From Propionibacteriales bacterium (lineage in GTDB: Bacteria > Actinomycetota > Actinomycetes > Propionibacteriales > Nocardioidaceae), in assembly GCA_038254365.1 (NCBI GenBank), contig JBBSGI010000009.1:1227-65226 (forward strand): 64,000 bases of DNA, in the 5' to 3' direction. Numbering within the stretch: position 1 is the first letter of the stretch; every line of letters begins with the position of its first letter. Made by a program: the position numbers and the translations under genes. Below, one piece after another: positions 51,073-64,000 of the stretch. The notes under the pieces were generated by a model. That model worked only from the letters and a program-made list of their open reading frames with translations, had not been told where the DNA came from and did not search any database.

Positions 51073-51396
51073 ATGAACGCGGACGAGGGGGCCGGCCAAC
51101 CGGTACCCGATGAGGTGTGGACCGAGCTTCGACGACTGAGGGCGAGCATCGACAACCTGGATGCCGCGCTGGTGCACCTGCTCGCGGAGCGCTTCGCGTG
51201 TACGCAGCAGGTCGGGCAGCTCAAGGCCCGGCACGGCATGCCGCCGGCGGATCCGGAGCGGGAGGCCCAGCAGATCGCCCGGCTTCGACAGCTCGCGGCG
51301 GAGGCACGCCTGGACCCGGAGTTCGCCGAGAAGTTCCTCGGGTTCGTCGTTGCCGAGGTGCTCAGGCACCACGAGGCGATCGCGCGCGACCCCTAG
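51073..51396 (+). CDS. chorismate mutase (AroQ class)
   Basis: LRASIDNLDAALVHLLAERFACTQQVGQLKARHGMPPADPEREAQ. 107 aa. Confidence 0.82.
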   Translation: MNADEGAGQPVPDEVWTELRRLRASIDNLDAALVHLLAERFACTQQVGQLKARHGMPPADPEREAQQIARLRQLAAEARLDPEFAEKFLGFVVAEVLRHHEAIARDP

Positions 51397-51445
51397 CGCC
51401 ACATCGGCGCGGGTCGGCGACGCATCCCGCACTACGCTCGACGAC

Positions 51446-52270
51446 GTGCACGTCTCGTCGTTGCGGATCTACCCGGTCAAGTCGACCACGGGCATCGACG
51501 TGTGTGAGGCCGTGGTCCACCCGTGGGGCCTCAACAACGACCGGCGCTGGATGGTCGTCGATCCGGCCGGTACGACGATGACCGCCCGCGTCCACCGTGA
51601 ACTGCTGCACGTCACCGCCACGCCTCGGCGCGGAGGCTCGATAGAGCTAACGGCACCGCGGATGGAGCCGCTGCACGTGGAGGTCCCCTGCCGGGACGTG
51701 TCGGTACCGCTCACGATGTCGCGCATCGAGTCGGGGATAGGCGCCGGTGTAGCGGCGGACCGATGGTTGTCCCGGCTCCTTGCCACGCCGGTTCGCCTGG
51801 TCTGGCTCGACGACCCGCGGCGCCGTACGGTCGGGACGTCCCACGGTGGACGGCCGGGCGACGCGCTGAACCTCGCGGACGCGGGACCCGTTCTGCTCAC
51901 GTCGACGACATCACTCGACAGGCTCAACGACTGGCTTCGGGAGACGGCCGCCGAACGCGTCGAGCGGGTCCCCAACCCCCTGCCGATGGTGCGGTTCCGA
52001 CCGAACATCGTCGTGACCGGGGTGGACGAGCCGTTCGCGGAGGACGAGTGGAAGCTGATCCGCGTCGGTGACGTCGAGCTGCGTTTCGCTGAGCACTGTG
52101 ACCGGTGCGTACTCACCACGATCGACCCGCAGACCCTCGCCTCCGGCAAGGAACCGACGCGCAGCCTCGCACTGCACCGCCAGTGGGACCACGAGGTCTT
52201 CTTCGGGGTGAGGCTCATCCCGGTGACGACCGGCGTGATCCGGGTCGGCGACCCGCTCGTGCTGCGTTGA
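51446..52270 (+). CDS. MOSC domain-containing protein
   Basis: MOSC N-terminal beta-barrel (SLRIYPVKS...GLNNDRRWMVVD) and the MOSC domain (FRPNIVV, CDRCVLTTIDP). GTG 51446. Confidence 0.82.
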   Translation: MHVSSLRIYPVKSTTGIDVCEAVVHPWGLNNDRRWMVVDPAGTTMTARVHRELLHVTATPRRGGSIELTAPRMEPLHVEVPCRDVSVPLTMSRIESGIGAGVAADRWLSRLLATPVRLVWLDDPRRRTVGTSHGGRPGDALNLADAGPVLLTSTTSLDRLNDWLRETAAERVERVPNPLPMVRFRPNIVVTGVDEPFAEDEWKLIRVGDVELRFAEHCDRCVLTTIDPQTLASGKEPTRSLALHRQWDHEVFFGVRLIPVTTGVIRVGDPLVLR

Positions 52271-52345
52271 CCGGATCCGCTGCCCGTCGTGGGCGGAAAA
52301 CGTAGGCTGGTCCGGCGGGGCCGACAGAGAGTGAGAGCTGGCGAG

Positions 52346-53728
52346 ATGACGGAGATCAAGCGGCACCGGGTCATGTTGTCCGAAGACGAGATGCCGACCC
52401 GGTGGTACAACATCGTGCCCGATCTGCCGGCGCCTCCTCCCCCCGTGCTGCACCCGGGAACCGGGCAGCCGGTCGGGCCCGACGACTTGGCGCCGCTGTT
52501 TCCGCTCGACCTCATCATGCAGGAGGTCACGAACGACAGGTACGTGGAGATCCCGGGCGAGATCCTCGACGTCTACCGGCTCTGGCGGCCTAGCCCGCTC
52601 TTCCGCGCGCACCGGCTGGAGAAGGCCCTCGGCACCCCGGCCCGGATCTACTACAAGTACGAGGGTGTCTCGCCGGCTGGCTCGCACAAGCCGAACACCG
52701 CTGTGCCTCAGGCGTTCTACAACGCCAAGGCAGGCATCAAGAGGCTGACCACCGAGACCGGTGCGGGACAGTGGGGCACCGCCCTCGCGTTCGCCTGCGC
52801 CCAGTTCGACGTCGAGTGTGAGGTCTGGCAAGTACGTGCCTCGTACGACCAGAAGCCGTACCGACGCATGATGATCGAGACGTTCGGCGGCATCGTGCAC
52901 CCTAGCCCCTCAGACCTGACGAACGCTGGGCGAGCCATCCTGGCCAAGGACCCCGACTCGACGGGCTCCCTCGGCATCGCGATCAGTGAGGCCGTCGAGA
53001 TGGCTGCCCAGGATCCGACGACCAACTATGCGCTGGGGAGCGTCCTCAACCACGTGCTGATGCACCAGACGATCATCGGCGAGGAGGCTTTGCTGCAGCT
53101 CGCGTCGATCGGAGAGACGCCCGACCTCCTCGTCGGATGCACTGGCGGCGGCTCCAACTTCGGCGGCCTCGCCTTCCCGTTCCTGCGCGAGAAGCTCGAG
53201 GGTCGCATGTCGCCGGTCATCCGCGCGGTGGAGCCTGCCGCCTGCCCATCCCTGACTCAAGGCGTCTACGCGTACGACTTCGGCGACACAGCAGGCATGA
53301 CGCCGCTGCTCAAGATGCACACCCTTGGCCATGACTTCATCCCCGACCCCATTCACTCCGGCGGGCTCCGCTACCACGGGATGAGCCCGCTGATCAGTCA
53401 TCTGTACGACCAGGGCATGCTCGAGGCGACGGCCAAGCCGCAGTCGGAGTGCTTCGCGGCCGGCGTGCTGTTCGCTCGCACCGAGGGGATCGTGCCGGCG
53501 CCGGAGCCGACTCATGCGCTCGCAGCGGCAGTCGAGGAGGCTCGACGATGCACGGAGACCGGCGAGGAGAAGGTCATACTGACGGCGCTCTGCGGGCACG
53601 GACATCTCGACCTGCCTGCCTACGACGCCTACCTCCACGGCCGAATTGTCGACCACGCCTGGGAGGACGCCGATGTCCAGGCCAGGGTCAACCGGGCGCT
53701 GGAGAACCTCCCTGCCCTGGCGCACTGA
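52346..53728 (+). CDS. TrpB-like PLP-dependent enzyme (TrpB2 type)
   Basis: [13 protein letters not shown]..., [18 protein letters not shown] (PLP lysine), [11 protein letters not shown]. Confidence 0.85.
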
Positions 53729-53760
53729 GCGCGACAGCCGCACGACGCGCTCGCACCGCG

Positions 53761-54231
53761 TCAGGCTCGCACGCTACGTGGTGGCGGGCTCCAGGACCCG
53801 GATCGGGATCTGCCGCTCCGTCTTCTTCTGGTACTCCTCATAGTCCGGCCAGACTCATAGTCCGGCCAGACCTCGACGGCCCGCTGCCACCACAGCACCT
53901 TCTCCTCCCCCACGACCTCACGGGCGACCATGTCGTGGCGCGCGGGGCCGTCTTGGAGCTCGACGTGCGGGTGGTTGCGGACGTTGTGGTACCAGACCGG
54001 GTTCTTCGGCGCGCCGCCGAGCGAGGCAACGATGGCGTAGGTCCCGTCGTGCTCAACCCGCATCAGCGGTGTCTTGCGCAGCTTGCCGGACTTCGCGCCG
54101 ACGGTCGTCAAGATCACCACCGGCTTCCCGCTCATCGTGGTGCCCTTGGTGCCGCCGGAGCTCTCGTACTCCTCGACCTGGTCCCGAGCCCACTGGCTGG
54201 GTCCCGGCTCGTACTTTCCTTGCAATGGCAT
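53761..54231 (-). CDS. F420-dependent nitroreductase (Ddn/deazaflavin-dependent family) with C-terminus altered by a 17-bp duplication
   Basis: [18 protein letters not shown]...[15 protein letters not shown] is the Ddn family core. After WPDYE the frame is shifted by the duplication at 53838-53871. Confidence 0.75.
53838..53871. repeat. perfect 17-bp tandem duplication (TCATAGTCCGGCCAGAC x2)
   Basis: Read directly: 53838-53854 is identical to 53855-53871. Confidence 0.97.
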
Positions 54232-54259
54232 AGCTCCAGTCAACACCGCCGAGCGCAGT

Positions 54260-55306
54260 TCAGCGACCGGTGGGGGGCTCATCATCTGTTGGCGCGCGCC
54301 GCGCGGAGCCTTCGTTGAGGCGTCCGAGCATCCGGTTGTAGGCGGCGAGGGCAGCTTCGTCCTCGTCGAGATCGGCGCCGTCTAGCCGAGTGCGCTCGCC
54401 GGTGGCGTCGAGGTGGTCGGCCAGTGTGCTCCGCCGTACCCCCTCGAGCCAGCCGCCGGCCGTTGCGTTCGTCGAGGAGTGTGTGATGTAAGCGAGCACG
54501 ACTCCGACGATGAACAGCATCATCAGCCCGTCACCGAAGGCCCACATGATGCCACCGCCGCGGTTCAGGTCGTGGAGGGGCGTGGGTCCCCAGCTGCGGC
54601 GGATCTCGGCGTACGCGGGGAAGAGCTCATGATCCGCCTGCAAGAGGACGATGCCGACAATGGTCTCGGGTGCCATCGCGATGAACAGCGCGACGAGGCG
54701 CACCAGGTACGGCGGCTGCCAGCGGATTGGTTCGTTGCCGAGCAGCGGCAGCAGGAAGAGATAGCCGCCAACGAGGTAGAGCACGGCCTCGACCTGGTGC
54801 AGCCACGGGTGCAGCATCATCTGCTGCATGAACGACGTCAGATGTGTGCCGACGATGATGCCGGCGTAGAGCAGGAAGCCAATCACCGGGTGCGTCAGGA
54901 TCGTGATCGGGGCCGAACGGAGGCTGGCTTCGACGCGAGCCCGCATGGTGCCGCGGGTGACCTGGAGCAACAGAGTCAGGGGGCTGCCCAGCACCAGCAG
55001 GGCCGGCGCCACCATGATCAGCAGCAGGTGCTGCACCATGTGCACCCAGAAGAGCACGTGGCCGTACGTCTCGATGGCCGTGTTCAGGCTGACCCCCAGC
55101 GTGACGAGTCCGAGCAAGAAGCACGCAACCCGGTACCACGGCAGGGGCGGGTCCCCGGTGCGGCGGGCACGGCGCAGGCCGAGGGCGTACGAAACGAGTG
55201 CGGCGAGGATGAGCACGTCCCACACCAGGTTCAGCTGCCAGGCGGTGAAGAGCAGGTGCCAGGTGAGGGGGTCGTAGCCGCCCATGTCCATGTCAGGCAC
55301 GGTCAC
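54260..55306 (-). CDS. cytochrome c oxidase assembly protein (Caa3_CtaG family membrane protein)
   Basis: Polytopic membrane protein. [21 protein letters not shown] and the later HP/W-rich helices are typical of the actinobacterial CtaG-like family. Confidence 0.7.
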
Positions 55307-55433
55307 CCACCTCGGTCCTCACTCCCCCATTGTCGTGCTCGGCCAGCGGCCCGAGTGGGAGGGTCGGTACGGCAGCCCGGTCGTGGAGCGCCCCCACACC
55401 GCCCCGGCGCGCCCGTGCCTCGACGGGCTCGGT

Positions 55434-55750
55434 TCACCGGTGCTCGGGGTTCTCGTAGTCGTAGCGACACCCCGCGTCCCAACCTGCCCGGACGTTGCCC
55501 CATACCGGGAACCCACCGGCGTCCTTGAGCAGCTTGGCCAGATGCATCACGTTCCAGGTCATGAACGTGGTGTTGCGGTTCGTGAAGTCGTTCTCCGGCC
55601 CTCCCGAACCCGGGTCGAGATAGGAGGGTCCCGGGCCCGCCTCACCGATCCAGCCCGCGTCGGCCTGCGGCGGAATGCTGTAGCCGCTGTGCTGCAGGGT
55701 ATCGCGTCGGCCGCGGGCGGGGCTGTTGCGGGAGAGGCGACGGCAGTCAT
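55434..55750 (-). pseudogene. small conserved-looking ORF whose coding frame has no canonical start (possible frameshift)
   Basis: A high-GC3 frame (LQHSGYSIPPQADAGWIGEAGPGPSYLDPGSGGPENDFTNRNTTFMTWNVMHLAKLLKDAGGFPVWGNVRAGWDAGCRYDYENPEHR) ends at TGA 55434. The only good start, AAGGAG-N6-ATG at 55750, is in another frame. Confidence 0.35.
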
Positions 55751-55963
55751 GGCAGGCTCCTTGCGTGTCACGGGCATCGGTAGAGACAAGAGTGGCAGGC
55801 CATAGGGTGGGTAACCTGCCAGACCGTCGAAAGGGCAGGCCCGTACCCGGTGTTGAGCTCTCGGCGGCGATGGGCCGGGTCGAAGTCCGTCGCCCCTAGG
55901 CGGTCCCGGGGCGTAAGGTCAGAGTCCTGCGGAGCCATCCAGGCTTCCGACCAGGGAGCCACC

Positions 55964-56095
55964 ATGGCTGACAAGTCCCCCCGACAACACCTCTCCAAGA
56001 AGGCCGGCAAGTCGCTCAAGGAAAAGCGCGCCGAGAAGCACGCGAAAGCCGATGCGAAGGGCAACACCCCGATCATCCCCCCGAAGAAGAGCTGA
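55964..56095 (+). CDS. 43-aa Lys-rich small protein
   Basis: MADKSPRQHLSKKAGKSLKEKRAEKHAKADAKGNTPIIPPKKS. ATG is preceded by AGGGAG. A hairpin GGTGAGCACC...GGTGCTTCACC lies downstream. Confidence 0.5.
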   Translation: MADKSPRQHLSKKAGKSLKEKRAEKHAKADAKGNTPIIPPKKS

Positions 56096-56300
56096 CCGGT
56101 CAGACCCCGCGGCGAGGCGGGCTAGCCCGATAGGTGAGCACCCAGCGTCAAGGTGCTTCACCATGCTGGTGCACCTCTCCGACCTCCGCAGTACTTCCTG
56201 GCCCCGGCCGGACGGCCCTCGTCAGCCTTCCGGCTGAATCGTTACCTCCCCAAGACATTCGTCGGCAGGTCCTCCGCTTGCGAAGGAGCAAACTGGGCGG

Positions 56301-56954
56301 GTGAGCATCGGACGCCCGAGCCGCTACACCGGCGGCGCGCGCCTGTATGACGTGTTGTCCGGGGAGCGGCCGGTGTATCGCGCCGGGCGGGTCCTCGGCG
56401 TCACCGATCTTGAGCTGCGTCCGGGGGATCGGGTGCTTGATATCGGCTGCGGGACGGGGCTGAACTTCCCGCTGCTGCACGACGCGGTCGGGCCGAGCGG
56501 CGCGATCGTCGGGGTCGACGCGAGCAGCGCGATGCTGGCCCGCGCGCGGGCGCGGCGCAAGAACCGAGGATGGCGCAACGTGAACCTAGTCGAGGCCGAC
56601 GCAGGTGACCTGGGTGAGACACTCTCGCAGTCTGCGCTGTCCCATTCGGTTGTTTCGGGGATGTTTGACGCCGCCCTGTTCACCTATTCTCTGTCGATCA
56701 TCGACCGATGGCGTGATGCCTACGCACAGACCGCGGCCGCAGTACGTCCCGGTGGACGGATCGTTGTGGTCGACATGGCCTTGCCGGTCGGGCGGTGGCG
56801 GGTGTTCTCGCCGCTGGCCCGGTTCGCGTGTTTCACCGGCGGCGCCGATATTACCCGAGCACCGTGGACCCTGCTGCTGTCGAGCACGACGAGGACGAGA
56901 CATCGCGTTGTCCGCGGGGGCCATATCCATATCGCCGCCGGAAGCCGGCCGTGA
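56301..56954 (+). CDS. class I SAM-dependent methyltransferase
   Basis: VLDIGCGTGLNFPLL...GVDASSAML. Convergent with the end of the radical SAM operon. Confidence 0.8.
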   Translation: MSIGRPSRYTGGARLYDVLSGERPVYRAGRVLGVTDLELRPGDRVLDIGCGTGLNFPLLHDAVGPSGAIVGVDASSAMLARARARRKNRGWRNVNLVEADAGDLGETLSQSALSHSVVSGMFDAALFTYSLSIIDRWRDAYAQTAAAVRPGGRIVVVDMALPVGRWRVFSPLARFACFTGGADITRAPWTLLLSSTTRTRHRVVRGGHIHIAAGSRP

Positions 56955-56965
56955 CCTGGCGGTGC

Positions 56966-57643
56966 TCACCGAGCATCTTGCTGGCCCGACGGTCCCGCCC
57001 TCGCCGCCTGGGAGCGTCGGTGCCGTGAGACGGCCACACCGACGGCGCTCAGCAGGATCAGGGCGCTTATCGCTGTGAGGAACGGCAGCGATCCCGGCCG
57101 GTCGCCGTAGGCGCCGACAGCCACGTAGGCAGTCGTGCCGGGCAGGATGCCGAGAAGTGTCCCTGCGAGGTATCTCGATGGCCGAACAGCGGTGAGCCCA
57201 CTGAGGTAGTTGAGAGCGGTGAACGGCACGATCGGCACGAGACGCGCCGCGAGCACTGCCCAGAACCCCCGACGGGCCAGGTAGCGGTCCAGCGTCTGCA
57301 GCCGCGCTCCGGTGAAGTGCTGCACGGCGTCGCGGCCCAGCACCCGACCGAGATGGAACGCGGCGAGGGCGCCGAGCGTCGCGCCGAGCACGACGATCGG
57401 CAGGCCCCGGGCCAGCCCAAAGACCGCGCCGGCGGCTATGGTGAAGACCGTCGCAGGCAGCGGCAGCAGGCTGAGCAGGGCGTACACGACGGCAAATCCG
57501 AGCGCGCCGACCAGGCCGGTGCCGGCGTACTGGGCCTTCAGACCGGCGACGTCTGGAACGTCGACGAACACGGCCAAAAAGACGGCGGTGACCACCAGAA
57601 CTGCCAGGCCGGCGAGGCGGTAACGCACATCCGGACGCATCAT
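56966..57643 (-). CDS. TVP38/TMEM64 (DedA-related) family membrane protein
   Basis: LLPLPATVFTIAAGAVFG...RLVPIVPFTALNYLSGLT. The start is taken at MRPDVRYRLAG. The ORF extends to 57673. Confidence 0.8.
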   Translation of the reverse strand: MMRPDVRYRLAGLAVLVVTAVFLAVFVDVPDVAGLKAQYAGTGLVGALGFAVVYALLSLLPLPATVFTIAAGAVFGLARGLPIVVLGATLGALAAFHLGRVLGRDAVQHFTGARLQTLDRYLARRGFWAVLAARLVPIVPFTALNYLSGLTAVRPSRYLAGTLLGILPGTTAYVAVGAYGDRPGSLPFLTAISALILLSAVGVAVSRHRRSQAARAGPSGQQDAR

Positions 57644-57697
57644 ACGACTTCCGTGTAGTCCGCACTGACGCATGTGCGGGCCGGGACGGCGGCGTGG

Positions 57698-59380
57698 TCA
57701 GATCGCACAGCGGTAGGGCTGGGGCATGCTTCCGTCAGCCAATCGGGCGGCGAAGAACCGCTCAGTCACCAGCTGCTTGCCGACACGCAACGACGCGGCT
57801 CCGGTGGTCAGCAGCATGTCCGGGCTGGTCTCGGCGTCCGCGCCGGCAGGATGCCAATGCAGCCCGTCGGCAGTGACCGTCAGCTCGGGGGTCGTGTCGT
57901 CTTCACCGATGTCCATCCCGTGGTCGGAGAAGCCCCGACGCAGCATGGGCCGTACCGCGAAGGCGTCGCCTTTCACCCCGAGGCCGGCGAGCATGTCCGC
58001 CACCTCCCCGATCTCGGCGGTGTTCTCCGGTGTCTCGGTGAGCGCAACCCGCACCACAAGCCCGAGGTCCAGCGCGGTCGCGATGCCGTCCATCGTGCGC
58101 TGCCACGAGCCTCGTCCGCGGTGGATGTCGTGCGTCGCGGCCGTTGCCCCGTCCAGCGAGGTTTGCACTACCAGATTCGGATGGTCGGCGAGGTCGCGCA
58201 GGGGATCGAGGCGGGCGCCCCGTAGCAGCATCGCGTTGGTGAGCAAGACCGTCGGCAACCGGTCGACGGCGTAGTGGAGCATGCCCGCGAGGTCGGGGTG
58301 CAGCATCGGCTCACCGCCGGTCAAATAGAGCTCGGCGAACTCTTCGTCGACGGCCTCGTCGACGCGGGCACGGAGCTGCTCGAGCGACAGGCTGCGAGCC
58401 CGGGCCTTTGGTGAGGATGCGACTGCGCAGTAGTCACACGCGAGGTTGCAGTGGAAGTTGGTATAGATCCACAACCGGGCAGGAAAGAACGGCGAGCCGA
58501 ACAGCGGAATCACCGGCAGCTCGCCATCGGTCGTGATGCCCGGGGGGCCACCCCACCCGTCGTCAGCGGCGGCGAAGCCGTCGGGCAGCGAGGAGCGGTA
58601 GAGGTGATACCGGCCGGTCGAGCGTTCTCGCGGCGGCAGAATCTCCAGACACGTGGCCCACCAGCCGGACTCGATCGTCTCGACGAAGGGCTGCGGCAAC
58701 CCGGCCCGGGTCATCGACGCGGCCTGGGCCTGCCAGTCGTAGTCCAGCGCGACGAGCTCGGCCCTGGCTTCCCCGTTTTCGATGTCAAGGACGGCGTACC
58801 AGACGCTGCGGGTGCCGTCGTTGGCCGGCTTGCCTAGCACGCCGACGTTGACGGCGAGGGTGTTGCCGATCCGCCGCTGCCACGGCAGCCCGCTGTGGGT
58901 GCAGAGGATGACGTCCGCGCCGCTGAGGGCCGCCCGAGCCTGGTGTTCCTCCTCGGGCAGAGACTCCCACCAGAAATCGTTCAACGCCACGGTAGAGCCG
59001 TGCACCAGGTGCAGATCACAGCCCTCGATCGTTACCCGCTGCTCGGTGGGCAGGGCTCCCATCCAGGCGGCGAACTGCGGGCTGGTGTGTGCCCGAGTGT
59101 GGTCGTAGATCAGCTGGGCGAACTCGTTGTCGCGAGGGTCGAGGTAGCCGCAGCCGCAATCGGGGTCGCCGCCGGCGAGGGCGACGTCGTAGTTGCCGGC
59201 GATGCACTCCATACCGGCGTCGGTCAGCAGCGGCCACAGGGTGTCCATCTCGGCGCCGAACCCACCAAGATCGCCGAGACAAAATAGCCGTTCGCAGCCG
59301 CGGGCCTTCGCGTCGATGATGAATGCCCGCAGCGCGTAGGGATTGGCGTAGGGGCCACCGCACACCGCTATGCGCGTCAT
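57698..59380 (-). CDS. fusion protein: calcineurin-like metallophosphoesterase (N) + radical SAM domain (C)
   Basis: Residues 1 to about 250 carry MPE motifs (IAVCGGPY, CLGDLGG, AGNYD, LVHGS, CTHSG). Residues from about 300 carry the radical SAM motif CNLACDYC (58427-58450) and LTGGEPMLHP. No SPASM or Cys-rich C-terminal domain is seen. Confidence 0.8.
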   Translation of the reverse strand: MTRIAVCGGPYANPYALRAFIIDAKARGCERLFCLGDLGGFGAEMDTLWPLLTDAGMECIAGNYDVALAGGDPDCGCGYLDPRDNEFAQLIYDHTRAHTSPQFAAWMGALPTEQRVTIEGCDLHLVHGSTVALNDFWWESLPEEEHQARAALSGADVILCTHSGLPWQRRIGNTLAVNVGVLGKPANDGTRSVWYAVLDIENGEARAELVALDYDWQAQAASMTRAGLPQPFVETIESGWWATCLEILPPRERSTGRYHLYRSSLPDGFAAADDGWGGPPGITTDGELPVIPLFGSPFFPARLWIYTNFHCNLACDYCAVASSPKARARSLSLEQLRARVDEAVDEEFAELYLTGGEPMLHPDLAGMLHYAVDRLPTVLLTNAMLLRGARLDPLRDLADHPNLVVQTSLDGATAATHDIHRGRGSWQRTMDGIATALDLGLVVRVALTETPENTAEIGEVADMLAGLGVKGDAFAVRPMLRRGFSDHGMDIGEDDTTPELTVTADGLHWHPAGADAETSPDMLLTTGAASLRVGKQLVTERFFAARLADGSMPQPYRCAI

Positions 59381-59438
59381 CTTCCCCCCAGTCTCGGCGT
59401 TCCCGCAGTTGCCGTCGTCGCTCGCGTCGTCGGTGAGT

Positions 59439-60839
59439 TCACAGCAGTACCGGTTCGGCGTGAAGCGGCGCCACGTCTTCGAGGGAGCGCCGCGACGGGT
59501 CGCGTCCGCCGTTGACCGCGGCGACGCCGACGGCGACCGCGCCGATCAACCAGAATCCCGCCACGAGCAGGTAGGACACGGTGGCGCCGAGGTCAGCGGC
59601 GATGCTGGGCAGGGCCAGGGTGCCGATGATCGCCCCGATGCGGCCGACCGCGACCGACGCCCCGACGCCGACCCCGCGCAGGTGCGTCGGGAAGAGCTCG
59701 GTGAACGTCGGGTAGGCCGACGTCCAGGCCGCGGTGCCCATGCCGTTGGCGACGACGAAGGCCAGCGTCACCCACACGGCACTGCCGCTCTGGGTGGCCA
59801 CGGAGAGCACGGCCACGGCGATCGCCGACAGGAGGTAACAAGCGCCGACCGTGCGCCTGTGGCCGACCCGATCAAACAAGCTGGCCATGATCAGGCCCCC
59901 AGCGAGCGCGCCCACGTTGCCGACGATGTAGAAGACCGGAATTCCGGATTGAGAGATGTCGATCTGCGGGAGCACGACCACCGACATCAGCGCGAACAGC
60001 CCGTAATAGCCGAACGCTTCGGCAAGATCGAGCATGGACCCCAATGCGAGCCGGCCCGGGTAGTGGCGCACCAGTTCGGCCAGCGCCGACCTCGTCGAAG
60101 CGACGACCGCAGGCCCGGACGCCGGGCTGGTCAGGGTCACCACCGGCGTCCGATCGCCTTCCAGCACCCGGATTGTCTGCTCGGCCTCAGTCATCCGCCC
60201 CTGGGAGGCCAGCCACCGTGGTGACTCTGGGATGCGGCGTCGGAAGAACAGCACGACAAGGGCGACCAGGCCGCCGAGGATGAACATGTAGCGCCAGGAC
60301 ACCGCGCTGGACAGGGCCAGGGTGTCGAGTGCGAAGTAGGCCAGCAGCCCAGCCAGGATGGCGCCAATCGGCCAGAAATTCATGACCAGCGCGTTCGCCT
60401 TCCCACGCACGCGCGCTGGCATGAACTCGGCGATGGCGGCGTTCACGATCGAGTATTCGGCCCCGACCCCGAGCGCGGCCAGGAAACGGAAGCCATAGAC
60501 GAAACTCAGATTCGGGCTCAAGCCCGTGAGCACAGTGAAGCCCGCGTACCAGAGCAGGGTGGCCACGAACAAGCGCCGCCGCCCGAAGCGGTCGGCTAGA
60601 CGACCGCCGACGACCGCCCCGAACAGGATGCCGACGAGCCAGATGGCAAGTACCGCGTCCCGCTCGAACATGCTCGCACCGAAGTGGTCGCCGAGCGGCC
60701 CGACAGCGCTGCTAAATATTTGTACTTCGAAGGAGTCGAACAGCCAGCCCGCGCCGAGCGCAATCAAGATCGTGGTGTGCAGACGTCGCCACGCCGCGTC
60801 GTCGAGGCGCCTACCGAGGTCGGTCTCAGTCGCCATCAA
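59439..60839 (-). CDS. MFS transporter (12-TMS, sugar-porter/metabolite:H+ symporter-like)
   Basis: GRLADRFGRRRLF, PESPRWL. Overlaps the upstream GT2 gene by 14 nt. Confidence 0.85.
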   Translation of the reverse strand: MMATETDLGRRLDDAAWRRLHTTILIALGAGWLFDSFEVQIFSSAVGPLGDHFGASMFERDAVLAIWLVGILFGAVVGGRLADRFGRRRLFVATLLWYAGFTVLTGLSPNLSFVYGFRFLAALGVGAEYSIVNAAIAEFMPARVRGKANALVMNFWPIGAILAGLLAYFALDTLALSSAVSWRYMFILGGLVALVVLFFRRRIPESPRWLASQGRMTEAEQTIRVLEGDRTPVVTLTSPASGPAVVASTRSALAELVRHYPGRLALGSMLDLAEAFGYYGLFALMSVVVLPQIDISQSGIPVFYIVGNVGALAGGLIMASLFDRVGHRRTVGACYLLSAIAVAVLSVATQSGSAVWVTLAFVVANGMGTAAWTSAYPTFTELFPTHLRGVGVGASVAVGRIGAIIGTLALPSIAADLGATVSYLLVAGFWLIGAVAVGVAAVNGGRDPSRRSLEDVAPLHAEPVLL

Positions 60840-61650
60840 GCTTCTCCTTCGTCATGCTGGGCCGGTGCAACGTCTGGGACCGTCCCCGCAGGCGTGGCAC
60901 GGTGATCCCCGGTCCGGCCTCGTAGCGGAGCCGGATCTGCTCAGGGGACACGCCGGTGAGGAACAGCAGCTTCAGGTACTGCATGAACGCGATCATCCGC
61001 AGCGTCCCGTGCTCAGTGAGGCGACGCGATGCGGCGGTGCTGGTCGCGGTGAGCACGACCATCCGCCCTGCCCGGTGCAGGCGTCGGGAGAACTCGAAGT
61101 CCTCCATCAGCGGCAGGGGGGCGAATCCGCCGAGTCGGTCGAAGGTGTCGCGGCGCACGAACATGGCCTGGTCGCCGAAGACGTGGTGCAGGCGGCGCGC
61201 CCGCAGCGTGGACACGCGGGCGAGGTAGTCCAAAGTCGGGGTGCGGCTATCAAAATGGAGAGTGAGCCCGCCGCCGACGGTGCCCGGGTCGCTCAGGGCC
61301 TCACGGATCTGCTCCAGCGCGTCCGGTGCGACGGCGGTGTCGGCGTGCACGAACCACAGGACGTCCCCGTGGGTGTGGCCTGCCCCTTCGTTCATCTGTC
61401 TAGCCCGTCCGGGGGCAGTCGTGACCACGCACGCCTGAGCGGCGGCCAGGTCGGGTGTGGCATCGCTGCTGCCGCCGTCGACCACGATGAGCTCGCAGTC
61501 GGGGAAGTCTTGGCGTAGCCGCCGCAGCGCGTCGCTGATGATCGGCGCCTCGTTGAGCACTGGTACGACGATGGACACGGCCAGGTTGTTGCACGCGGGC
61601 TCGCGCGATCGCCCGGACTTCGCCCCACCGGTCCTCGTTGACGCGCTCAT
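60826..61650 (-). CDS. family 2 glycosyltransferase resembling the rSAM/selenodomain-associated transferase 2 (TIGR04283-like)
   Basis: SIVVPVLNE, LIVVDGGSSD, GRARQMNEGA, FVHADT, GDQAMFVRR, LMEDFEFSRRL, STAASRR. This is the pattern I remember for TIGR04283. ATGA overlap upstream. Confidence 0.75.
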   Translation of the reverse strand: MSASTRTGGAKSGRSREPACNNLAVSIVVPVLNEAPIISDALRRLRQDFPDCELIVVDGGSSDATPDLAAAQACVVTTAPGRARQMNEGAGHTHGDVLWFVHADTAVAPDALEQIREALSDPGTVGGGLTLHFDSRTPTLDYLARVSTLRARRLHHVFGDQAMFVRRDTFDRLGGFAPLPLMEDFEFSRRLHRAGRMVVLTATSTAASRRLTEHGTLRMIAFMQYLKLLFLTGVSPEQIRLRYEAGPGITVPRLRGRSQTLHRPSMTKEKLDGD

Positions 61651-62327
61651 CCCGGCTCCAACGACTGCTCGATCGCCGAGGTGACGATGGCGTGGATCGA
61701 CGGCGGCAGCGCCCCGTCGGCAGCAAGTGCGCGCGCGTCGGCAGGGAGGTCAAGGTCCCTCAGTTCGGGTAGGAATGCGACAGTCAACCCGGCCGCGCGT
61801 GCCGCGGCGACGCTCCTTTCCAGCACGCACGGACCGCCCCATGAGGCCGGGTCGATCTCGAACACCTCGCCTACCGGCCGGCGCACTGCGATGAGGTAGT
61901 AGCCGCCGTCTAGAGCGGGGCCGAACACCACGTCGTGCCCCGCCTCGAGCAACCGGACCGCTGCGACGATAAGGCCCGACGTCAGGCTGGGCACATCAGT
62001 GCCGATCAGCACGACCGGGCCGGGTCGGGTCGCTGCGGCGTGCGCTACCGCAGCGGACATCCGTGAACCGAGATGGCTGCCTTGCTGGGCGACGACGGCC
62101 ACGGCAGGTCCTACCGTGGCCGCTACCTCGGTCACAGCGTCGGGAGGGTCGACCGCGACGATCAGGCGCGTCGGAGCTGCCCGCAGCGCGGTAGCTGCGG
62201 TGTGCACGATCAGGGCGTGTTGCAGTCGGGCGCATCCGGTAGCCCCGAGCAGCGGCTGCAGCCGCGTCTTCGTCCGGCCCGGGCGTGCGGCTCGCGCCAT
62301 CACCACAACCGTCGGGAGCAGGTTCAC
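61647..62327 (-). CDS. DUF2064 / CofC-like nucleotidyl- or glycosyl-transferase (TIGR04282-like, transferase 1)
   Basis: VVMARAARPGRTKTRLQPLLG, QQGSHLGSRM, LIGTDVPSL, FGPALDGGYYLI. GTG 62327 overlaps the radical SAM stop as GTGA. Confidence 0.75.
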   Translation of the reverse strand: MNLLPTVVVMARAARPGRTKTRLQPLLGATGCARLQHALIVHTAATALRAAPTRLIVAVDPPDAVTEVAATVGPAVAVVAQQGSHLGSRMSAAVAHAAATRPGPVVLIGTDVPSLTSGLIVAAVRLLEAGHDVVFGPALDGGYYLIAVRRPVGEVFEIDPASWGGPCVLERSVAAARAAGLTVAFLPELRDLDLPADARALAADGALPPSIHAIVTSAIEQSLEPG

Positions 62328-63739
62328 GTGTCGAACCGGTAGTTGGTGCCGATGGTGGGCAGCAGCGGCAGCGTCCGACGCAGTGCGACGTTCTCGATGG
62401 GGTCGAGCACGCTGTGCTGGACGCAGGCCGGGACGAGTTCCCCGGTCTCGGGGTGCGCCATCGCATATGAGCACGCCTGAAGCCGCTGCTGGACGGCCAG
62501 CACGCAGGGCTCTGTGCTGGTCTCGCCGCGCTGCAGCGCCTCCCACGCGGGCGCGACATCGCTGGCGTCCATGAACGAGTGCATCACGAACGTCACCGGC
62601 CGGATCCGGCGCTGGCGCATGAGGTTCCGGACACCGACCTTGGCGAGCATGCGTACCGCCCAGCCGGTGAAGACTATGGCGGCCGAAGGATGGCGAGCGA
62701 TGACCCGCAGCAGCTTTATGATCAGCGTCGGCAACGGTGTGCCGGCGAAGTCGACCCCGCCGAGATGTCGGAAGAACACGTCGCGGGTGTGCAGGTCGGC
62801 GAGGTCCTCGTCGTCCAGGATCGGGAAGTAGCGGTTGCCGACGTAGAAGCCGTACGTGGTGCGGTTGCAGCGTTCGTCGCCGATCTGCAGCGCCCGGAAC
62901 GGAAGGCGGGTGCCAGCGCCCGCCTCGATCTGCGCCCACACGTCATCGGCCGTGGACTCGTGGAAGCTCTCGTGCCAGCGGCGGTCGTCGCCGACGAAGG
63001 CGGCCGGCTGGAAGGAGAACAGCCCGAAGCCGTAGTCGTGGCAGTCGCGGATGACGCCGGCGATCTGGTCGAGGTTGCGGGGAGTGACCGTCATGTTGTG
63101 CGCGATGAAGTAGGGGATGCCGTGGTCTCTGCGCAGCGCGGCGAACATGTCGGCGAACCGACGTCGGTATGGGTTCAGGGAGCGCTCGTCGGGTGGACGT
63201 TCGACGCCACGGCGACCGAACATGAGCATGTCGAAATGCCCGGCGAACGAGATGCGGGGCAGTCGCGGCGCTCCGTCGGCGTCGAGGGCGAGAGCAGTGA
63301 GGTAGTCGAGGTCGAAGTCGCCGTGACTCATGCTCATCGGCTCGCGGCCCTGCTCGCGCATGGCCAGCAGAGCCGCGGCATGGTCGTCGGGGGGAAGCAG
63401 GCTGACCTCGCCGCCGATCAGCTGTGCATGCGCTCGCGGTCCACGCAGGCGGCGCAGCAGCCGCATCTGCGCGCGAACCTGGTCGACAGTGTGCCGGCCG
63501 TCGACCCGGACGCGGTTGGCGTCGCGGGAGTGGTAGCACGGGGTGCACGCCAGATTGCATCGCGGGAACACCCCGTGGGTTCCCTCGCAACCCACCGCAT
63601 GCTGGCCGAGCGCCTGTGCCCGGGTCCGGACATGCTCGGGCAGCGACTGCCACCGCTGCCTTAGCACCGTCGCAGTCTCTGGGTCGACCGGGCGGGTGGC
63701 TCGCGCGAGGCTCCGAAGTCGCCCGAGAAGTCGGCCCAT
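62324..63739 (-). CDS. radical SAM protein, 471 aa, family unresolved
   Basis: CX3CX2C motif CNLACTPC (63536-63559), preceded by GCEGTHG. A long C-terminal extension carries Cys at CVLAVQQRLQAC and PAC. It is neither ArsS-like nor SPASM-like by eye. Confidence 0.8.
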   Translation of the reverse strand: MGRLLGRLRSLARATRPVDPETATVLRQRWQSLPEHVRTRAQALGQHAVGCEGTHGVFPRCNLACTPCYHSRDANRVRVDGRHTVDQVRAQMRLLRRLRGPRAHAQLIGGEVSLLPPDDHAAALLAMREQGREPMSMSHGDFDLDYLTALALDADGAPRLPRISFAGHFDMLMFGRRGVERPPDERSLNPYRRRFADMFAALRRDHGIPYFIAHNMTVTPRNLDQIAGVIRDCHDYGFGLFSFQPAAFVGDDRRWHESFHESTADDVWAQIEAGAGTRLPFRALQIGDERCNRTTYGFYVGNRYFPILDDEDLADLHTRDVFFRHLGGVDFAGTPLPTLIIKLLRVIARHPSAAIVFTGWAVRMLAKVGVRNLMRQRRIRPVTFVMHSFMDASDVAPAWEALQRGETSTEPCVLAVQQRLQACSYAMAHPETGELVPACVQHSVLDPIENVALRRTLPLLPTIGTNYRFDT

Positions 63740-63846
63740 CAGGCCTCGGTGACCGAGATCGAATCCGAGAACGACACGTGGTTCAGGATCGTCTGGTCAC
63801 CGCGGGCGATGGCCGTATCGTTGAGTGTGGCGACGTAGGTGGTCAT
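63739..63846 (-). CDS. 35-codon ORF translationally coupled to the radical SAM gene
   Basis: MTTYVATLNDTAIARGDQTILNHVSFSDSISVTEA. GC3 is about 31/35. AAGGAC-N4-ATG is the likely RBS and start, and the TGA shares one base with the radical SAM ATG (TGATG). Confidence 0.5.
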   Translation of the reverse strand: MTTYVATLNDTAIARGDQTILNHVSFSDSISVTEA

Positions 63847-64000
63847 ACCTGTCCTTCGTTGTCGGAAGGGGTTCGGTTCGCGCGTGGTACCCGGCCAAGA
63901 CTGTCGAAGGGGCCGTGACCGACAAGCCCTCTGCGGTCCATCAGGACGGCGCTACGGAGGTAAGCCGCAGAACTCTCCTCGTATCGATGGCGGGGGCGAA

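What the first reader, a model, noticed from the sequence alone, without database searches (positions are those of the whole stretch)
56966..63846. Tightly coupled seven-gene radical SAM operon: an expanded, rearranged relative of the rSAM/selenodomain (arsenosugar-type) gene set
Read on the minus strand, the genes run in this order:
- a 35-codon ORF
- a 471-aa radical SAM enzyme
- a DUF2064 transferase
- a GT2 transferase
- an MFS transporter
- a metallophosphoesterase-radical SAM fusion
- a TVP38 membrane protein

The first five are joined by 1-, 4-, 4- and 14-nt overlaps. The last two follow after gaps of 58 nt and about 54 nt.

From memory of the TIGRFAMs definitions, a DUF2064 transferase 1 (TIGR04282), a GT2 transferase 2 (TIGR04283) and a phosphoesterase are the defined partners of the radical SAM/selenodomain enzyme TIGR04167. 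That enzyme is now called ArsS and is linked to arsenosugar biosynthesis.

This locus departs from that set in several ways:
- The two transferases are present, but no canonical ArsS with its Cys/Sec-rich C-terminal domain is visible.
- The phosphoesterase is fused to a radical SAM domain.
- A second, much larger orphan radical SAM enzyme is present.
- A dedicated MFS transporter and a TVP38 protein are added.
- No arsM, ars resistance genes or arsenic sensor are nearby.

The product is therefore probably not a classical arsenosugar, and the pathway chemistry is open.
Basis: partly seen in the sequence, partly recalled or inferred. Interest (0 to 1): 0.85.

Follow-up and report, generated by a model that had tools for sequence, protein, structure and literature searches.

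The report
Tes-like radical SAM operon, trimmed copy
This is a real, tightly packed operon from a widespread but unstudied actinobacterial gene cluster; its central enzyme is a distant relative of the archaeal tetraether-lipid synthase rather than an arsenic enzyme, so it more likely remodels a membrane lipid or glycolipid than makes an arsenosugar.

Summary
The seven ORFs, their order and their overlaps are as described.

**Family assignments**
- The two transferases pass the curated cut-offs of TIGR04282 and TIGR04283.
- Neither radical SAM protein is ArsS.
- The 471-aa enzyme belongs to a large, highly conserved family. It is a full-length remote homologue of the tetraether lipid synthase Tes/GDGT-MAS, by both profile and fold.
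- The fusion joins an Rv1681-type radical SAM domain to a phosphoesterase-like domain in which cysteines replace several metal ligands.

**Two clean deletions in this copy**
- The 35-codon ORF is what is left of a DUF427 gene after an in-frame internal deletion.
- An MTA-phosphorylase-like gene has been deleted between the first two enzymes.

**Conservation**
- The architecture recurs in Jatrophihabitans, Streptomyces and a Dormibacterota-labelled genome.
- In more loci the same Tes-like enzyme is paired instead with a CDP-alcohol phosphatidyltransferase, an ABC importer and a VTT protein.
- In most loci of either kind it sits near a MerA-like flavoprotein, and often near an ECF sigma pair and a methyltransferase.
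- Relatives about 31% identical to the window enzyme sit next to TIGR04282/TIGR04283 genes, or next to VTT/flavoprotein genes.

**Best reading:** a stress-linked membrane lipid or glycolipid modification pathway (moderate confidence). Nothing I tested supports a link to arsenic.

The parts
63739..63846 (-). 35-codon ORF. It is a remnant of a DUF427 (PF04248) gene that keeps the start, RBS and stop (TGATG coupling to the next gene) but has lost about 66 internal codons.
   Evidence: The protein alignment A1 shows that the N-terminal residues and the C-terminal 'NHVxF...VTE' match intact 95-98-aa DUF427 proteins. The DNA alignment A2 shows a clean 198-nt in-frame gap relative to L009. There is no Pfam or NCBIfam hit.
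62324..63739 (-). 471-aa radical SAM enzyme ('rSAM471'), a divergent full-length homologue of Tes/GDGT-MAS. The RS motif is C61-x3-C65-x2-C68. Other invariant residues are C51, C291, C423, C439 and H387.
   Evidence: PF04055 scores 32.8 bits. More than 2,597 homologues were found. The family profile hits 7tol_A at E=1.4e-15 over profile positions 53-432 and chain residues 111-499. The AlphaFold model has pLDDT 82 and pTM 0.85. Foldseek's top hits are 7tol/7tom at E=2e-11 over 480 columns; the next hit is at 8e-5.
62324..62350 (-). Deletion scar. The last 8 codons of rSAM471 (GTNYRFDT) and its stop derive from the 3' end of a lost MTAP-like phosphorylase gene.
   Evidence: In blastn against J. 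lederbergiae L004, about 0.78 kb (L004 10436-11211) has no counterpart in the window. The L004 phosphorylase ends in VGTNYRFDA. That phosphorylase scores 133.6 bits to TIGR01694 MTAP, below the cut-off of 274.85.
61647..62327 (-). DUF2064 nucleotidyltransferase-like protein, a TIGR04282 member
   Evidence: TIGR04282 scores 167.5 bits (cut-off 134). PF09837 scores 100.9 bits. There are weaker hits to CofC and MobA-like families.
60826..61650 (-). GT2 glycosyltransferase, a TIGR04283 member
   Evidence: TIGR04283 scores 216.9 bits (cut-off 182). PF00535 scores 73.4 bits.
59439..60839 (-). MFS transporter of the solute:H+ symporter type (aromatic-acid / sugar-porter-like)
   Evidence: TIGR00895 scores 173.8 bits, PF00083 137.5 bits and PF07690 132.9 bits. 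It is 85% identical to the J. lederbergiae orthologue in the same position.
57698..59380 (-). 560-aa fusion. Residues 1 to about 250 form a metallophosphoesterase-fold domain with Cys-substituted metal motifs. Residues from about 300 to 560 form an Rv1681-type radical SAM domain (C311-x3-C315-x2-C318). An invariant Cys558 sits 3 residues from the C-terminus.
   Evidence: PF12850 scores 42.1 bits and PF04055 73.6 bits. NF049973 (Rv1681 family) scores 268 bits against a cut-off of 380, covering profile positions 72-326 of 326. TIGR04167 (ArsS) scores 45.9 bits against 300. The N-terminal domain alone gets only weak YfcE hits. The model has pLDDT 78. In Foldseek the N-domain matches SapH 3qfm (TM 0.81 normalised to the target) and the C-domain matches SkfB and BlsE.
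56966..57673 (-). VTT / TVP38-type DedA-family membrane protein
   Evidence: PF09335 scores 100.2 bits. It is 54% identical to the VTT protein of the J. lederbergiae CDP-alcohol-type locus. VTT genes occur in 19 of 51 surveyed loci.
56301..56954 (+). Class I SAM-dependent methyltransferase, convergent with the operon and co-conserved with it
   Evidence: Pfam matches Methyltransf_12/25/31/11. It is 72% identical to the methyltransferase of the J. lederbergiae locus. A homologue is present in 24 of 51 surveyed loci. ArsM models score only about 50 bits against cut-offs of 263-510.

Best explanation
The locus is a trimmed copy of a widespread, uncharacterised gene cluster found mainly in Actinomycetota. 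Its constant member is a divergent Tes/GDGT-MAS-type radical SAM enzyme.

Shown:
- The gene content and order.
- The family memberships.
- The full-length sequence and fold relationship of rSAM471 to GDGT-MAS. This includes alignment of three of its extra invariant cysteines, and of an invariant histidine, with the C-terminal auxiliary-cluster region.
- Recurrence of the cluster in two alternative forms, and in lineages only about 31% identical to the window enzyme.
- The two in-frame deletions in this copy.

Inferred mechanism: the cluster makes or remodels a membrane lipid or glycolipid.
1. The Tes-like enzyme uses a 5'-deoxyadenosyl radical, and probably its auxiliary cluster, to functionalise an unactivated carbon of a hydrophobic (lipid) substrate.
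2. The head-group module is interchangeable. Here it is TIGR04282 (nucleotidyltransferase-like), TIGR04283 (GT2) and a second radical SAM enzyme fused to a Cys-rich phosphoesterase-like domain. In most other genomes it is a CDP-alcohol phosphatidyltransferase.
3. A transporter supplies a precursor: an MFS symporter here, a YnjB-type ABC importer elsewhere.
4. The VTT protein, a putative scramblase, moves the lipid between leaflets.
5. In complete versions an ECF sigma/anti-sigma pair, a MerA-like flavoprotein disulfide reductase and a methyltransferase accompany the cluster. This suggests induction under envelope or redox stress.
6. The MTAP-like phosphorylase lost here may only clear the 5'-deoxyadenosine by-product, which would explain why it is dispensable.
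For: 1. rSAM471 is related to GDGT-MAS over its whole length.
- The family profile hits 7tol_A at E=1.4e-15 over about 380 positions.
- Foldseek's best match is 7tol/7tom at E=2e-11. The next match is six orders of magnitude weaker.
- Distant family members hit the Tes model NF045702 at 38-66 bits.
- C291, C423 and C439 align with cysteines of the GDGT-MAS C-terminal cluster domain. Invariant H387 aligns with its labile Met439 (paper PMC9433317).

2. Lipid-handling neighbours.
- A CDP-alcohol phosphatidyltransferase gene overlaps the rSAM471 stop by 8 nt in L001-L003 and L005. One lies in the locus in 31 of 54 well-flanked loci.
- VTT genes occur in the window and in 19 of 51 loci.
- COG0398 DedA proteins are putative phospholipid scramblases. 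Their commonest fusion partner is the same flavoprotein family found in these loci (PMC10127716).

3. The linkage is old.
- One subclade about 31% identical to the window enzyme carries a neighbouring operon with TIGR04283 (206 bits), TIGR04282 (147 bits), an MFS gene, a second rSAM and a YnjB-type binding protein.
- Other loci of that distant set carry VTT plus a MerA-like reductase.

4. In the fusion-type loci, MPE-rSAM (21/21), the MerA-like reductase (21/21) and GT2 (19/21) are near-constant. DUF2064 (6/21), the phosphorylase (5/21) and MFS (4/21) are accessory.

5. In Kribbella L001 the order is methyltransferase, sigma, anti-sigma, reductase, DUF427, rSAM471, CDP-alcohol transferase and the ABC genes, all on one strand.
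Against: - No lipid has been observed, so the lipid reading rests on homology and neighbourhood only.
- Similarity to Tes is remote: about 17% identity, and NF045702 scores 16.7 bits against a cut-off of 450 for the window protein.
- The rubredoxin and N-terminal cluster domains of GDGT-MAS are absent.
- Several partners fit soluble nucleoside or sugar-phosphate chemistry at least as well:
  - the DUF2064 nucleotidyltransferase-like protein;
  - the MTAP-like phosphorylase;
  - an amidohydrolase in the distant clade whose secondary match is 5'-deoxyadenosine deaminase;
  - the SapH (Ap4A hydrolase)-like fold of the fusion's N-domain.
- The MFS is of the symporter type, which suits a soluble substrate.
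- The GT2 has no demonstrated acceptor.
- No reductase or sigma/anti-sigma genes are found in the window. Upstream sequence ends 154 nt beyond the operon. This copy has also suffered two deletions.
Confidence: 0.4

Rival explanations
1. An arsenosugar-like pathway to a 5-deoxy-5-X-ribosyl compound.
1. One of the two radical SAM enzymes adenosylates a heteroatom or carbon nucleophile X. X could be a methylated metalloid or chalcogen prepared by the methyltransferase and the MerA-like reductase.
2. The MTAP-like phosphorylase releases adenine to give 5-X-ribose-1-phosphate.
3. DUF2064 activates it as an NDP-sugar.
4. GT2 transfers it to an acceptor.
5. The phosphoesterase-like domain removes a phosphate.
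6. The Cys-rich N-domain and the C-terminal Cys of the fusion would bind X, as the Cys/Sec-rich domain of ArsS is thought to do.
For: - TIGR04282 and TIGR04283 pass their cut-offs. Their family names in NCBIfam tie them to arsenosugar biosynthesis.
- An MTAP-like phosphorylase sits directly after rSAM471 in ten fetched Type-A loci (nine distinct, since L004 and L006 are the same contig): L004/L006, L007, L009, L031, L054, L069, L081, L086 and L087.
- An amidohydrolase with a secondary match to 5'-deoxyadenosine deaminase takes the equivalent place in the distant clade.
- The fusion has invariant C7, C34, C59, C75, C77, C160 and C558.
- The methyltransferase's best named hits include selenoprotein and ArsM-type methyltransferases at about 50-60 bits.
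- ArsS and ArsL set a precedent for radical SAM C-As bond formation (PMC12159101).
Against: - No ArsS: TIGR04167 scores 45.9 bits against 300.
- The methyltransferase is far below the ArsM cut-offs, and to my eye lacks ArsM's conserved cysteines (from memory of ArsM).
- No ars genes were seen in any annotated neighbourhood.
- The phosphorylase and DUF2064 are present in only 5-6 of 21 fusion-type loci. The phosphorylase has been cleanly deleted here.
- The phosphorylase could simply remove 5'-deoxyadenosine.
- This reading does not explain the Tes-type enzyme or its commoner pairing with a CDP-alcohol phosphatidyltransferase.
Confidence: 0.25
2. A unified variant modelled on bacteriohopanepolyol side-chain synthesis. 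A lipid carbon is adenosylated. Adenine is then removed to leave a C-linked ribosyl group. That group is glycosylated and remodelled by the second radical SAM enzyme. The result is a lipid with a polar group on its tail.
For: - Several of the enzyme families recur: an adenosyl-transferring rSAM (HpnH), a GT2 (HpnI), and from my memory of the pathway a PNP_UDP_1 enzyme (HpnG) and a second rSAM (HpnJ).
- The fusion's rSAM domain hits HpnH at 58 bits.
- The GT2 hits HpnB (E=4.4e-8) and HpnI (E=1.2e-6).
- Background on HpnH is in PMC13459092.
- The Tes-type fold fits a lipid substrate.
Against: - All these hits are weak and generic.
- The phosphorylase is MTAP-like. No HpnG model appeared among its hits.
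- The phosphorylase is dispensable.
- No squalene-hopene cyclase or other hopanoid gene lies in the loci.
Confidence: 0.1
3. The window copy is a decaying, non-functional remnant, so the tight packing says nothing about a working pathway in this organism.
For: - Two deletions, in DUF427 and in the phosphorylase gene.
- No MerA-like reductase or sigma pair in the window.
- The J. lederbergiae orthologous locus has a frameshift in DUF427 and a scrambled reductase C-terminus.
Against: - Both deletions are in frame and preserve the start/stop coupling.
- All six remaining proteins are full length.
- rSAM471 and the fusion keep every residue that is invariant in their families.
- The lost genes are exactly the ones that are optional in other genomes.
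- GC3 is 0.83-0.86 for the four long ORFs listed.
Confidence: 0.1
4. The 35-codon ORF is a RiPP precursor peptide matured by the adjacent radical SAM enzyme.
For: A small ORF with a good RBS is translationally coupled to a radical SAM gene.
Against: - The ORF aligns end to end with the two ends of DUF427 proteins, with a 198-nt internal gap.
- Relatives carry the intact 95-98-aa gene or none at all.
- The rSAM belongs to the Tes family, not to a SPASM peptide maturase family.
Confidence: 0.01

Closest known systems
ArsS-associated 'arsenosugar' gene set (TIGR04167 ArsS, TIGR04168 phosphoesterase, TIGR04282, TIGR04283, ArsM)
   Same: True members of TIGR04282 and TIGR04283 are present. A radical SAM enzyme and a phosphoesterase-fold domain are present, here fused. 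A SAM methyltransferase is co-conserved nearby.
   Different: - The rSAM domain is Rv1681-type, not ArsS, and has no selenodomain.
- The phosphoesterase domain matches no such family and has Cys-substituted motifs.
- The methyltransferase is not ArsM.
- A Tes-type rSAM, an MFS and a VTT protein are added.
- No ars genes are nearby.
Tes / GDGT-MAS (tetraether lipid synthase; PDB 7TOL/7TOM; NF045702)
   Same: - Radical SAM core and C-terminal domain align over about 380 positions.
- It is the best and only full-length structural match.
- Cysteines of the C-terminal auxiliary-cluster region are conserved.
   Different: - About 17% identity, far below the family cut-off.
- It lacks the rubredoxin and N-terminal [4Fe-4S] domains.
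- An invariant His stands at the position of the labile Met439.
- It is bacterial, from apparently aerobic soil lineages.
- The substrate is unknown.
Rv1681 (MoeX) family radical SAM proteins (NF049973)
   Same: The C-terminal 260 residues of the fusion align to profile positions 72-326 of 326 at 268 bits.
   Different: The score is below the cut-off of 380. The first 71 profile positions are replaced by a phosphoesterase-like domain of about 250 residues. The family itself has no known function.
COG0398 (TVP38-type) DedA proteins and their fusions to pyridine-nucleotide disulfide oxidoreductases
   Same: A VTT protein and a MerA/LipDH-type flavoprotein travel together with the Tes-like enzyme, in Actinomycetota and in distant clades. 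This mirrors the commonest domain fusion of that DedA subfamily (PMC10127716).
   Different: Here they are separate genes, and the flavoprotein gene is not found in the window. The link to a radical SAM enzyme is not described in that paper.
E. coli ynjBCD / ynjF (from memory of the E. coli map)
   Same: The commoner form of the cluster pairs a YnjB-type binding protein (PRK11622, 408 bits) and ABC permeases with a CDP-alcohol phosphatidyltransferase. One locus (L005) also carries a CMD-family gene upstream.
   Different: E. coli has no Tes-like rSAM at that locus as far as I recall. The ynj genes are also uncharacterised. The window itself carries the MFS/GT2 form rather than this one.

Membership tests
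ArsS-type arsenosugar gene set | TIGR04282 family member present | tested here: met
   167.5 bits against a cut-off of 134
ArsS-type arsenosugar gene set | TIGR04283 family member present | tested here: met
   216.9 bits against a cut-off of 182
ArsS-type arsenosugar gene set | ArsS (TIGR04167) radical SAM enzyme with a Cys/Sec-rich C-terminal domain | tested here: not met
   The fusion scores 45.9 bits against a cut-off of 300, and only over the generic rSAM core. rSAM471 has no hit.
ArsS-type arsenosugar gene set | Associated metallophosphoesterase family (TIGR04168) | tested here: not met
   The N-terminal 285 residues scanned alone give no NCBIfam hit at E<=0.001. At E<=10 there are only YfcE-type hits of about 15.6 bits. 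I could not confirm that the TIGR04168 model is in the library release.
ArsS-type arsenosugar gene set | ArsM arsenite methyltransferase and/or ars genes in the neighbourhood | tested here: not met
   The adjacent methyltransferase scores 51.6 bits against 263 (PRK11873) and 33.5 bits against 500 (ArsM of arsinothricin). No ars genes appear in the annotated neighbourhoods.
ArsS-type arsenosugar gene set | Arsenic-containing product | not testable with these tools
   Needs metabolite analysis.
Tes / GDGT-MAS (NF045702) | Score at or above the curated family cut-off | tested here: not met
   16.7 bits against 450 for the window protein. Distant clade members reach 38-66 bits.
Tes / GDGT-MAS (NF045702) | Radical SAM CX3CX2C motif | tested here: met
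   C61, C65 and C68 are invariant.
Tes / GDGT-MAS (NF045702) | [quoted passage not shown] | tested here: met
   The profile hits 7tol_A at E=1.4e-15 over profile positions 53-432 and chain residues 111-499. Foldseek gives 7tol at E=2e-11 over 480 columns with TM about 0.5. C291, C423 and C439 align to Cys residues, and H387 to Met439.
Tes / GDGT-MAS (NF045702) | N-terminal rubredoxin and [4Fe-4S]N domains | tested here: not met
   The alignment starts at chain residue 111. The only conserved N-terminal Cys is C51. The domain description comes from PMC9433317.
Tes / GDGT-MAS (NF045702) | Lipid substrate and tail-to-tail C-C coupling | not testable with these tools
   Needs lipidomics or an enzyme assay.
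Rv1681 family radical SAM (NF049973) | Score at or above the cut-off over the full profile | tested here: not met
   268.1 bits against 380. Only profile positions 72-326 are matched.
Metallophosphoesterase (PF12850) | Pfam gathering score | tested here: met
   42.1 bits against 27. The fold is confirmed by SapH 3qfm, TM 0.81 normalised to the target.
Metallophosphoesterase (PF12850) | Canonical metal-ligand motifs (DxH, GD, GNH[D/E], H, GHxH) | tested here: not met
   Motif I is C7-G-G-P-Y, motif III is G-N63-Y64-D, and motif V is C160-T-H162. D37, H124/H127 and H162 are kept. C7, C34, C59, C75 and C77 are invariant, and C160 is at least 90% conserved, across the 31- and 53-sequence alignments. 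The motif definitions are from general knowledge of the superfamily.
DUF427 (PF04248) | Intact domain with the conserved GNHYFP / CPWKG core | tested here: not met
   orf35 has no Pfam hit. The core is deleted.
VTT / DedA (PF09335) | Pfam gathering score | tested here: met
   100.2 bits against 33.9. Assignment to the COG0398 subfamily was not tested.

The most novel reading that the evidence does not exclude
The rSAM471 family is a previously unrecognised branch of the Tes/GDGT-MAS family. It would work in aerobic soil bacteria with iso-branched fatty acids and couple or otherwise functionalise lipid tails. That would make it a candidate for the missing enzyme behind iso-diabolic-acid-type or brGDGT-like membrane-spanning lipids in aerobes, which are reported to lack Mss and mostly lack close Tes homologues (PMC13159169). 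It is too divergent (about 17% identity) to have been caught by the BLAST surveys with E<1e-50 (PMC8941075). The fatty-acid make-up of these taxa is from my own knowledge, not a tool result.
Probability: 0.1. Interest if true: 0.85.

Novelty: new variant of a known kind. Interest (0 to 1): 0.62.

Why it matters
**Annotation.** TIGR04282 and TIGR04283 are named 'arsenosugar biosynthesis' glycosyltransferases in NCBIfam. Here, and in relatives of the Tes-like enzyme only about 31% identical to it, they travel with a Tes-type radical SAM enzyme and no ArsS. The arsenic label is therefore probably over-extended for a large set of actinobacterial genes.

**A new branch of the Tes family.**
- The Tes/GDGT-MAS fold, known for forming C-C bonds between inert lipid termini, has a large and highly conserved bacterial branch (more than 2,500 homologues).
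- In nine full-text searches of the held library I found no paper that describes this family or cluster.
- Its constant company points to an unexplored piece of envelope biology in common soil bacteria, including culturable Streptomyces. That company is a putative scramblase, a flavoprotein disulfide reductase and an ECF sigma pair, plus either a phospholipid synthase or a glycosyltransferase set.

**Geochemistry.** If the enzyme couples lipid tails, it bears on the open question of which aerobic bacteria make membrane-spanning lipids used as palaeoclimate proxies.

**Enzymology.** The phosphoesterase-fold domain with cysteines in place of its metal ligands, fused to a radical SAM domain, is an oddity worth studying in its own right.

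Tried and rejected
- **RiPP precursor reading of orf35.** Rejected. It is a DUF427 remnant.
- **Direct sequence search of rSAM471 against PDB.** No hit. A family profile was needed.
- **Exact-sequence look-ups of the window's own rSAM471.** The closest named relative is Jatrophihabitans lederbergiae, at 84-85% identity.
- **Literature searches.** Searches for DUF427, Rv1681, TIGR04282/3, TrsS, ynjF/B/C, DUF547, and TVP38 with mercuric reductase found nothing that characterises this cluster.
- **Rfam scan of 55000-64000.** No RNA family.
- **Promoter and terminator scan.** No sigma-70-type promoter. The few terminator-like hairpins lie inside genes and are uninformative.
- **Remnants of other cluster genes in the window.** A search for remnants of the reductase, sigma, anti-sigma or CDP-alcohol transferase found nothing significant.
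- **DUF547 and other distant-clade partners in actinobacterial loci.** None found.
- **Context of two distant representatives.** P0192 has only a DUF547 neighbour, and the P0134 contig is too short. Neither was informative.
- **Model coordinates.** They are not available to scripts, so the pocket of rSAM471 and the geometry of the Cys cluster in the fusion could not be examined.

Full report
**1. Observation**

- The first five genes overlap by 1, 4, 4 and 14 nt.
- A 58-nt gap follows the MFS gene.
- The gap before the VTT gene is 24 or 54 nt, depending on which ATG is used.
- Third-position GC is 0.83-0.86 for the four long ORFs the screen listed.
- Six of the seven ORFs have significant family matches.
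- Orthologues lie in the same order in other genomes.

The operon is real. One further gene belongs to it. A class I methyltransferase at 56301-56954 (+) is convergent, 11 nt from the VTT stop. It is 72% identical to the methyltransferase of the orthologous Jatrophihabitans locus.

**2. Family assignments**

- **DUF2064** scores 167.5 bits to TIGR04282 (cut-off 134).
- **GT2** scores 216.9 bits to TIGR04283 (cut-off 182).
- **The fusion** has a PF12850 phosphoesterase domain and a PF04055 radical SAM domain.
  - Its C-terminal 260 residues match the Rv1681 family (NF049973) at 268 bits, below the cut-off of 380. Profile positions 1-71 are unmatched, and the phosphoesterase-like domain occupies the N-terminus instead.
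  - ArsS (TIGR04167) scores only 45.9 bits against 300.
  - The N-domain alone matches nothing in NCBIfam except weak YfcE-type hits.
- **The MFS** is of the solute:H+ symporter type.
- **The last gene** is a VTT/DedA-family protein.

**3. The 471-aa enzyme is a Tes/GDGT-MAS relative**

- It has more than 2,597 database homologues. The 80 best genome loci are 63-85% identical to it, and the 51 aligned database homologues 67-84%. They come from Jatrophihabitans, Nakamurella, Kribbella, Actinoplanes, Streptomyces, Dermatophilaceae, Pseudonocardiaceae and a Gaiellales-labelled MAG. All carry generic names.
- At 50% clustering there are 589 representatives. They include clades about 30-37% identical that hit the Tes (NF045702) and TrsS (NF045646) models at 38-66 bits.
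- A single-sequence PDB search found nothing.
- A 20-sequence family profile hit GDGT-MAS (7tol_A) at E=1.4e-15 over profile positions 53-432 and chain residues 111-499. This goes well beyond the radical SAM core.
- An AlphaFold model (pLDDT 82, pTM 0.85) found 7tol/7tom as the only full-length structural match: E=2e-11 over 480 columns, with the next hit at 8e-5.
- Besides the C61/C65/C68 motif, the family has invariant C51, C291, C423, C439 and H387.
  - In the HMM alignment, C291, C423 and C439 fall on cysteines of the GDGT-MAS C-terminal auxiliary-cluster domain.
  - H387 falls on the position of Met439, the labile ligand of that cluster. I inferred a numbering offset of 20 from the RS motif.
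- The rubredoxin and N-terminal cluster domains are missing.

**4. Two clean deletions in this copy**

- **orf35** aligns with the first ~16 and last ~19 residues of intact 95-98-aa DUF427 proteins. At DNA level there is a 198-nt in-frame gap. The RBS, the start and the TGATG junction are kept.
- DUF427 is intact in L007, L009, L031 and L069. It is frameshifted in J. lederbergiae. No match was found in L036, L065, L081, L086 or L087.
- **An MTAP-like phosphorylase gene** lies between rSAM471 and DUF2064 in ten fetched Type-A loci (nine distinct). It scores 133.6 bits to TIGR01694, below the cut-off.
- In the window about 0.78 kb is missing at that point. The rSAM471 tail GTNYRFDT is the old phosphorylase C-terminus (VGTNYRFDA).
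- Both deletions keep the reading frames and the coupling. rSAM471 and the fusion keep every family-invariant residue.

**5. Neighbourhood survey**

I fetched 80 genome loci around rSAM471 homologues and typed them by tblastn. Of the 54 with at least 3 kb on both sides:

| Type | Loci |
|---|---|
| CDP-alcohol phosphatidyltransferase in the locus | 30 |
| MPE-rSAM fusion set | 20 |
| Both | 1 |
| Neither | 3 |

- In the CDP-alcohol type, the transferase gene overlaps the rSAM471 stop by 8 nt in L001-L003 and L005. It is usually followed by a YnjB-type ABC importer (PRK11622, 408 bits) and a VTT gene.
- In the fusion type, the fusion (21/21), a MerA/LipDH-type flavoprotein (21/21) and GT2 (19/21) are near-constant. 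DUF2064 (6/21), the phosphorylase (5/21) and MFS (4/21) are accessory.
- A MerA-like reductase accompanies most loci of both types. An ECF sigma, a zf-HC2 anti-sigma and the methyltransferase accompany many of them.
- In Kribbella all of these lie on one strand ahead of DUF427 and rSAM471.
- J. lederbergiae has both forms.
- The window-type order also occurs in Streptomyces bacillaris and in a Ca. Nephthysia bennettiae MAG.
- The fusion protein itself is about 70% identical in many cultured Streptomyces.

**6. The linkage is ancient**

In a clade about 31% identical to rSAM471 (P0400; L090-L092), the Tes-like gene sits next to a divergent operon. That operon encodes:

- an amidohydrolase (best hit PRK08204, an unnamed subfamily; secondary hit 5'-deoxyadenosine deaminase);
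- an MFS transporter;
- TIGR04283 (206 bits);
- TIGR04282 (147 bits);
- a 352-aa radical SAM protein;
- a kinase-like protein;
- a YnjB-type binding protein.

Among 80 metagenome loci of distant clades:

- a DUF547 gene is next to the Tes-like gene in most of the 44 loci of at least 7 kb;
- about nine loci carry VTT plus a MerA-like reductase;
- several carry GT2 or fusion-like genes.

**7. The fusion's N-domain**

- Its fold is closest to the Ap4A hydrolase/phosphodiesterase SapH (3qfm, TM 0.81 normalised to the target).
- Several canonical metal ligands are replaced. Motif I is C7-G-G-P-Y, motif III is G-N-Y, and motif V is C160-T-H162.
- There are further conserved cysteines at positions 34 and 59, an invariant D74-C75-G-C77-G-Y loop, and an invariant C558 near the C-terminus.
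- This suggests a different metal or cluster site, or a binding site for a soft ligand. I could not test this.

**8. Interpretation**

The lipid or glycolipid reading (confidence 0.4) is the one that best ties together:

- the only structurally characterised relative of the constant enzyme, which is a lipid-tail-coupling enzyme;
- the commonest neighbour, an integral-membrane phospholipid synthase family;
- the VTT partner, which belongs to a family of putative scramblases whose commonest fusion partner is the same flavoprotein family (PMC10127716);
- the ECF sigma control.

The arsenosugar-like reading (0.25) explains the DUF2064, phosphorylase/deaminase and Cys-rich features. It does not explain the Tes-type enzyme or the phospholipid-synthase form, and no arsenic gene supports it. 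The phosphorylase may only remove 5'-deoxyadenosine. That role for MTAP-type enzymes is from my general knowledge, not a tool result.

**9. Novelty**

The genes are in public genomes under generic names. I found no paper on this family or cluster in nine full-text searches of the held library. Published Tes surveys used E<1e-50 BLAST thresholds (PMC8941075), which would miss this family. Aerobic producers of iso-diabolic acid are reported to lack Mss and mostly lack Tes (PMC13159169). That leaves room for the most novel reading, which I rate at about 10%.

Noticed in passing
window 55965-56095 (+): A small ORF encodes a 43-aa, highly basic, lysine-rich peptide (MADKSPRQHLSKKAGKSLKEKRAEKHAKADAKGNTPIIPPKKS). 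It lies in the otherwise gene-poor 1-kb stretch between ctaG and the methyltransferase. There is no family hit for the overlapping longer ORF.
   Followed up: no
window 55306-56300: In this stretch relatives carry the MerA-like reductase and the ECF sigma/anti-sigma genes next to the methyltransferase. The window has no recognisable remnant of them. An unassigned minus-strand ORF lies around 55430-55750.
   Followed up: partly
window 48441-55306: Downstream neighbours, none of which recurs in the related loci:
- fatty-acid desaturase (48441-49577, -)
- Rrf2 regulator (50214-50846, +)
- MOSC protein (51161-52270, +)
- PLP-dependent enzyme (52289-53728, +)
- F420H2-dependent quinone reductase (53761-54285, -)
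- caa3 CtaG (54260-55306, -)
   Followed up: partly
L004 8740-9040 and 16100-17680 (Jatrophihabitans lederbergiae JAVREH010000055): The orthologous locus of the closest named relative has a frameshift near the start of DUF427 and a scrambled C-terminus in the MerA-like reductase. These could be draft-assembly errors or parallel decay of the accessory genes.
   Followed up: partly
L002 75-5829 (Dermatophilaceae bacterium Soc4.6): The rSAM471 / CDP-alcohol transferase / VTT locus lies a few kb from a TerC/TerD/PRTase 'tellurium-resistance'-type stress cluster. The proximity may be coincidental.
   Followed up: no
L093-L172 (metagenome loci of Tes-like relatives about 30-35% identical to rSAM471): A DUF547 (PF04784) gene is next to the Tes-like gene in most loci of at least 7 kb, often in two copies. 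It is absent from the actinobacterial loci, where DUF427 occupies the upstream position.
   Followed up: partly
L005 8900-16881; L090 971-2185: Both the actinobacterial and the distant clusters carry a YnjB-type binding protein (PRK11622, 408 and 533 bits). L005 also has the ABC permeases, a CDP-alcohol phosphatidyltransferase and an upstream CMD-family gene. Together these recall the uncharacterised E. coli ynjABCD-ynjF region (the resemblance is from memory).
   Followed up: no
L086 11701-12885; L055 6828-8072: A second FAD/NAD-binding protein of about 400 aa (Pyr_redox_3 type) sits directly beside the fusion gene in Streptomyces bacillaris and in Pseudonocardiaceae loci. It is absent from the window.
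   Followed up: no
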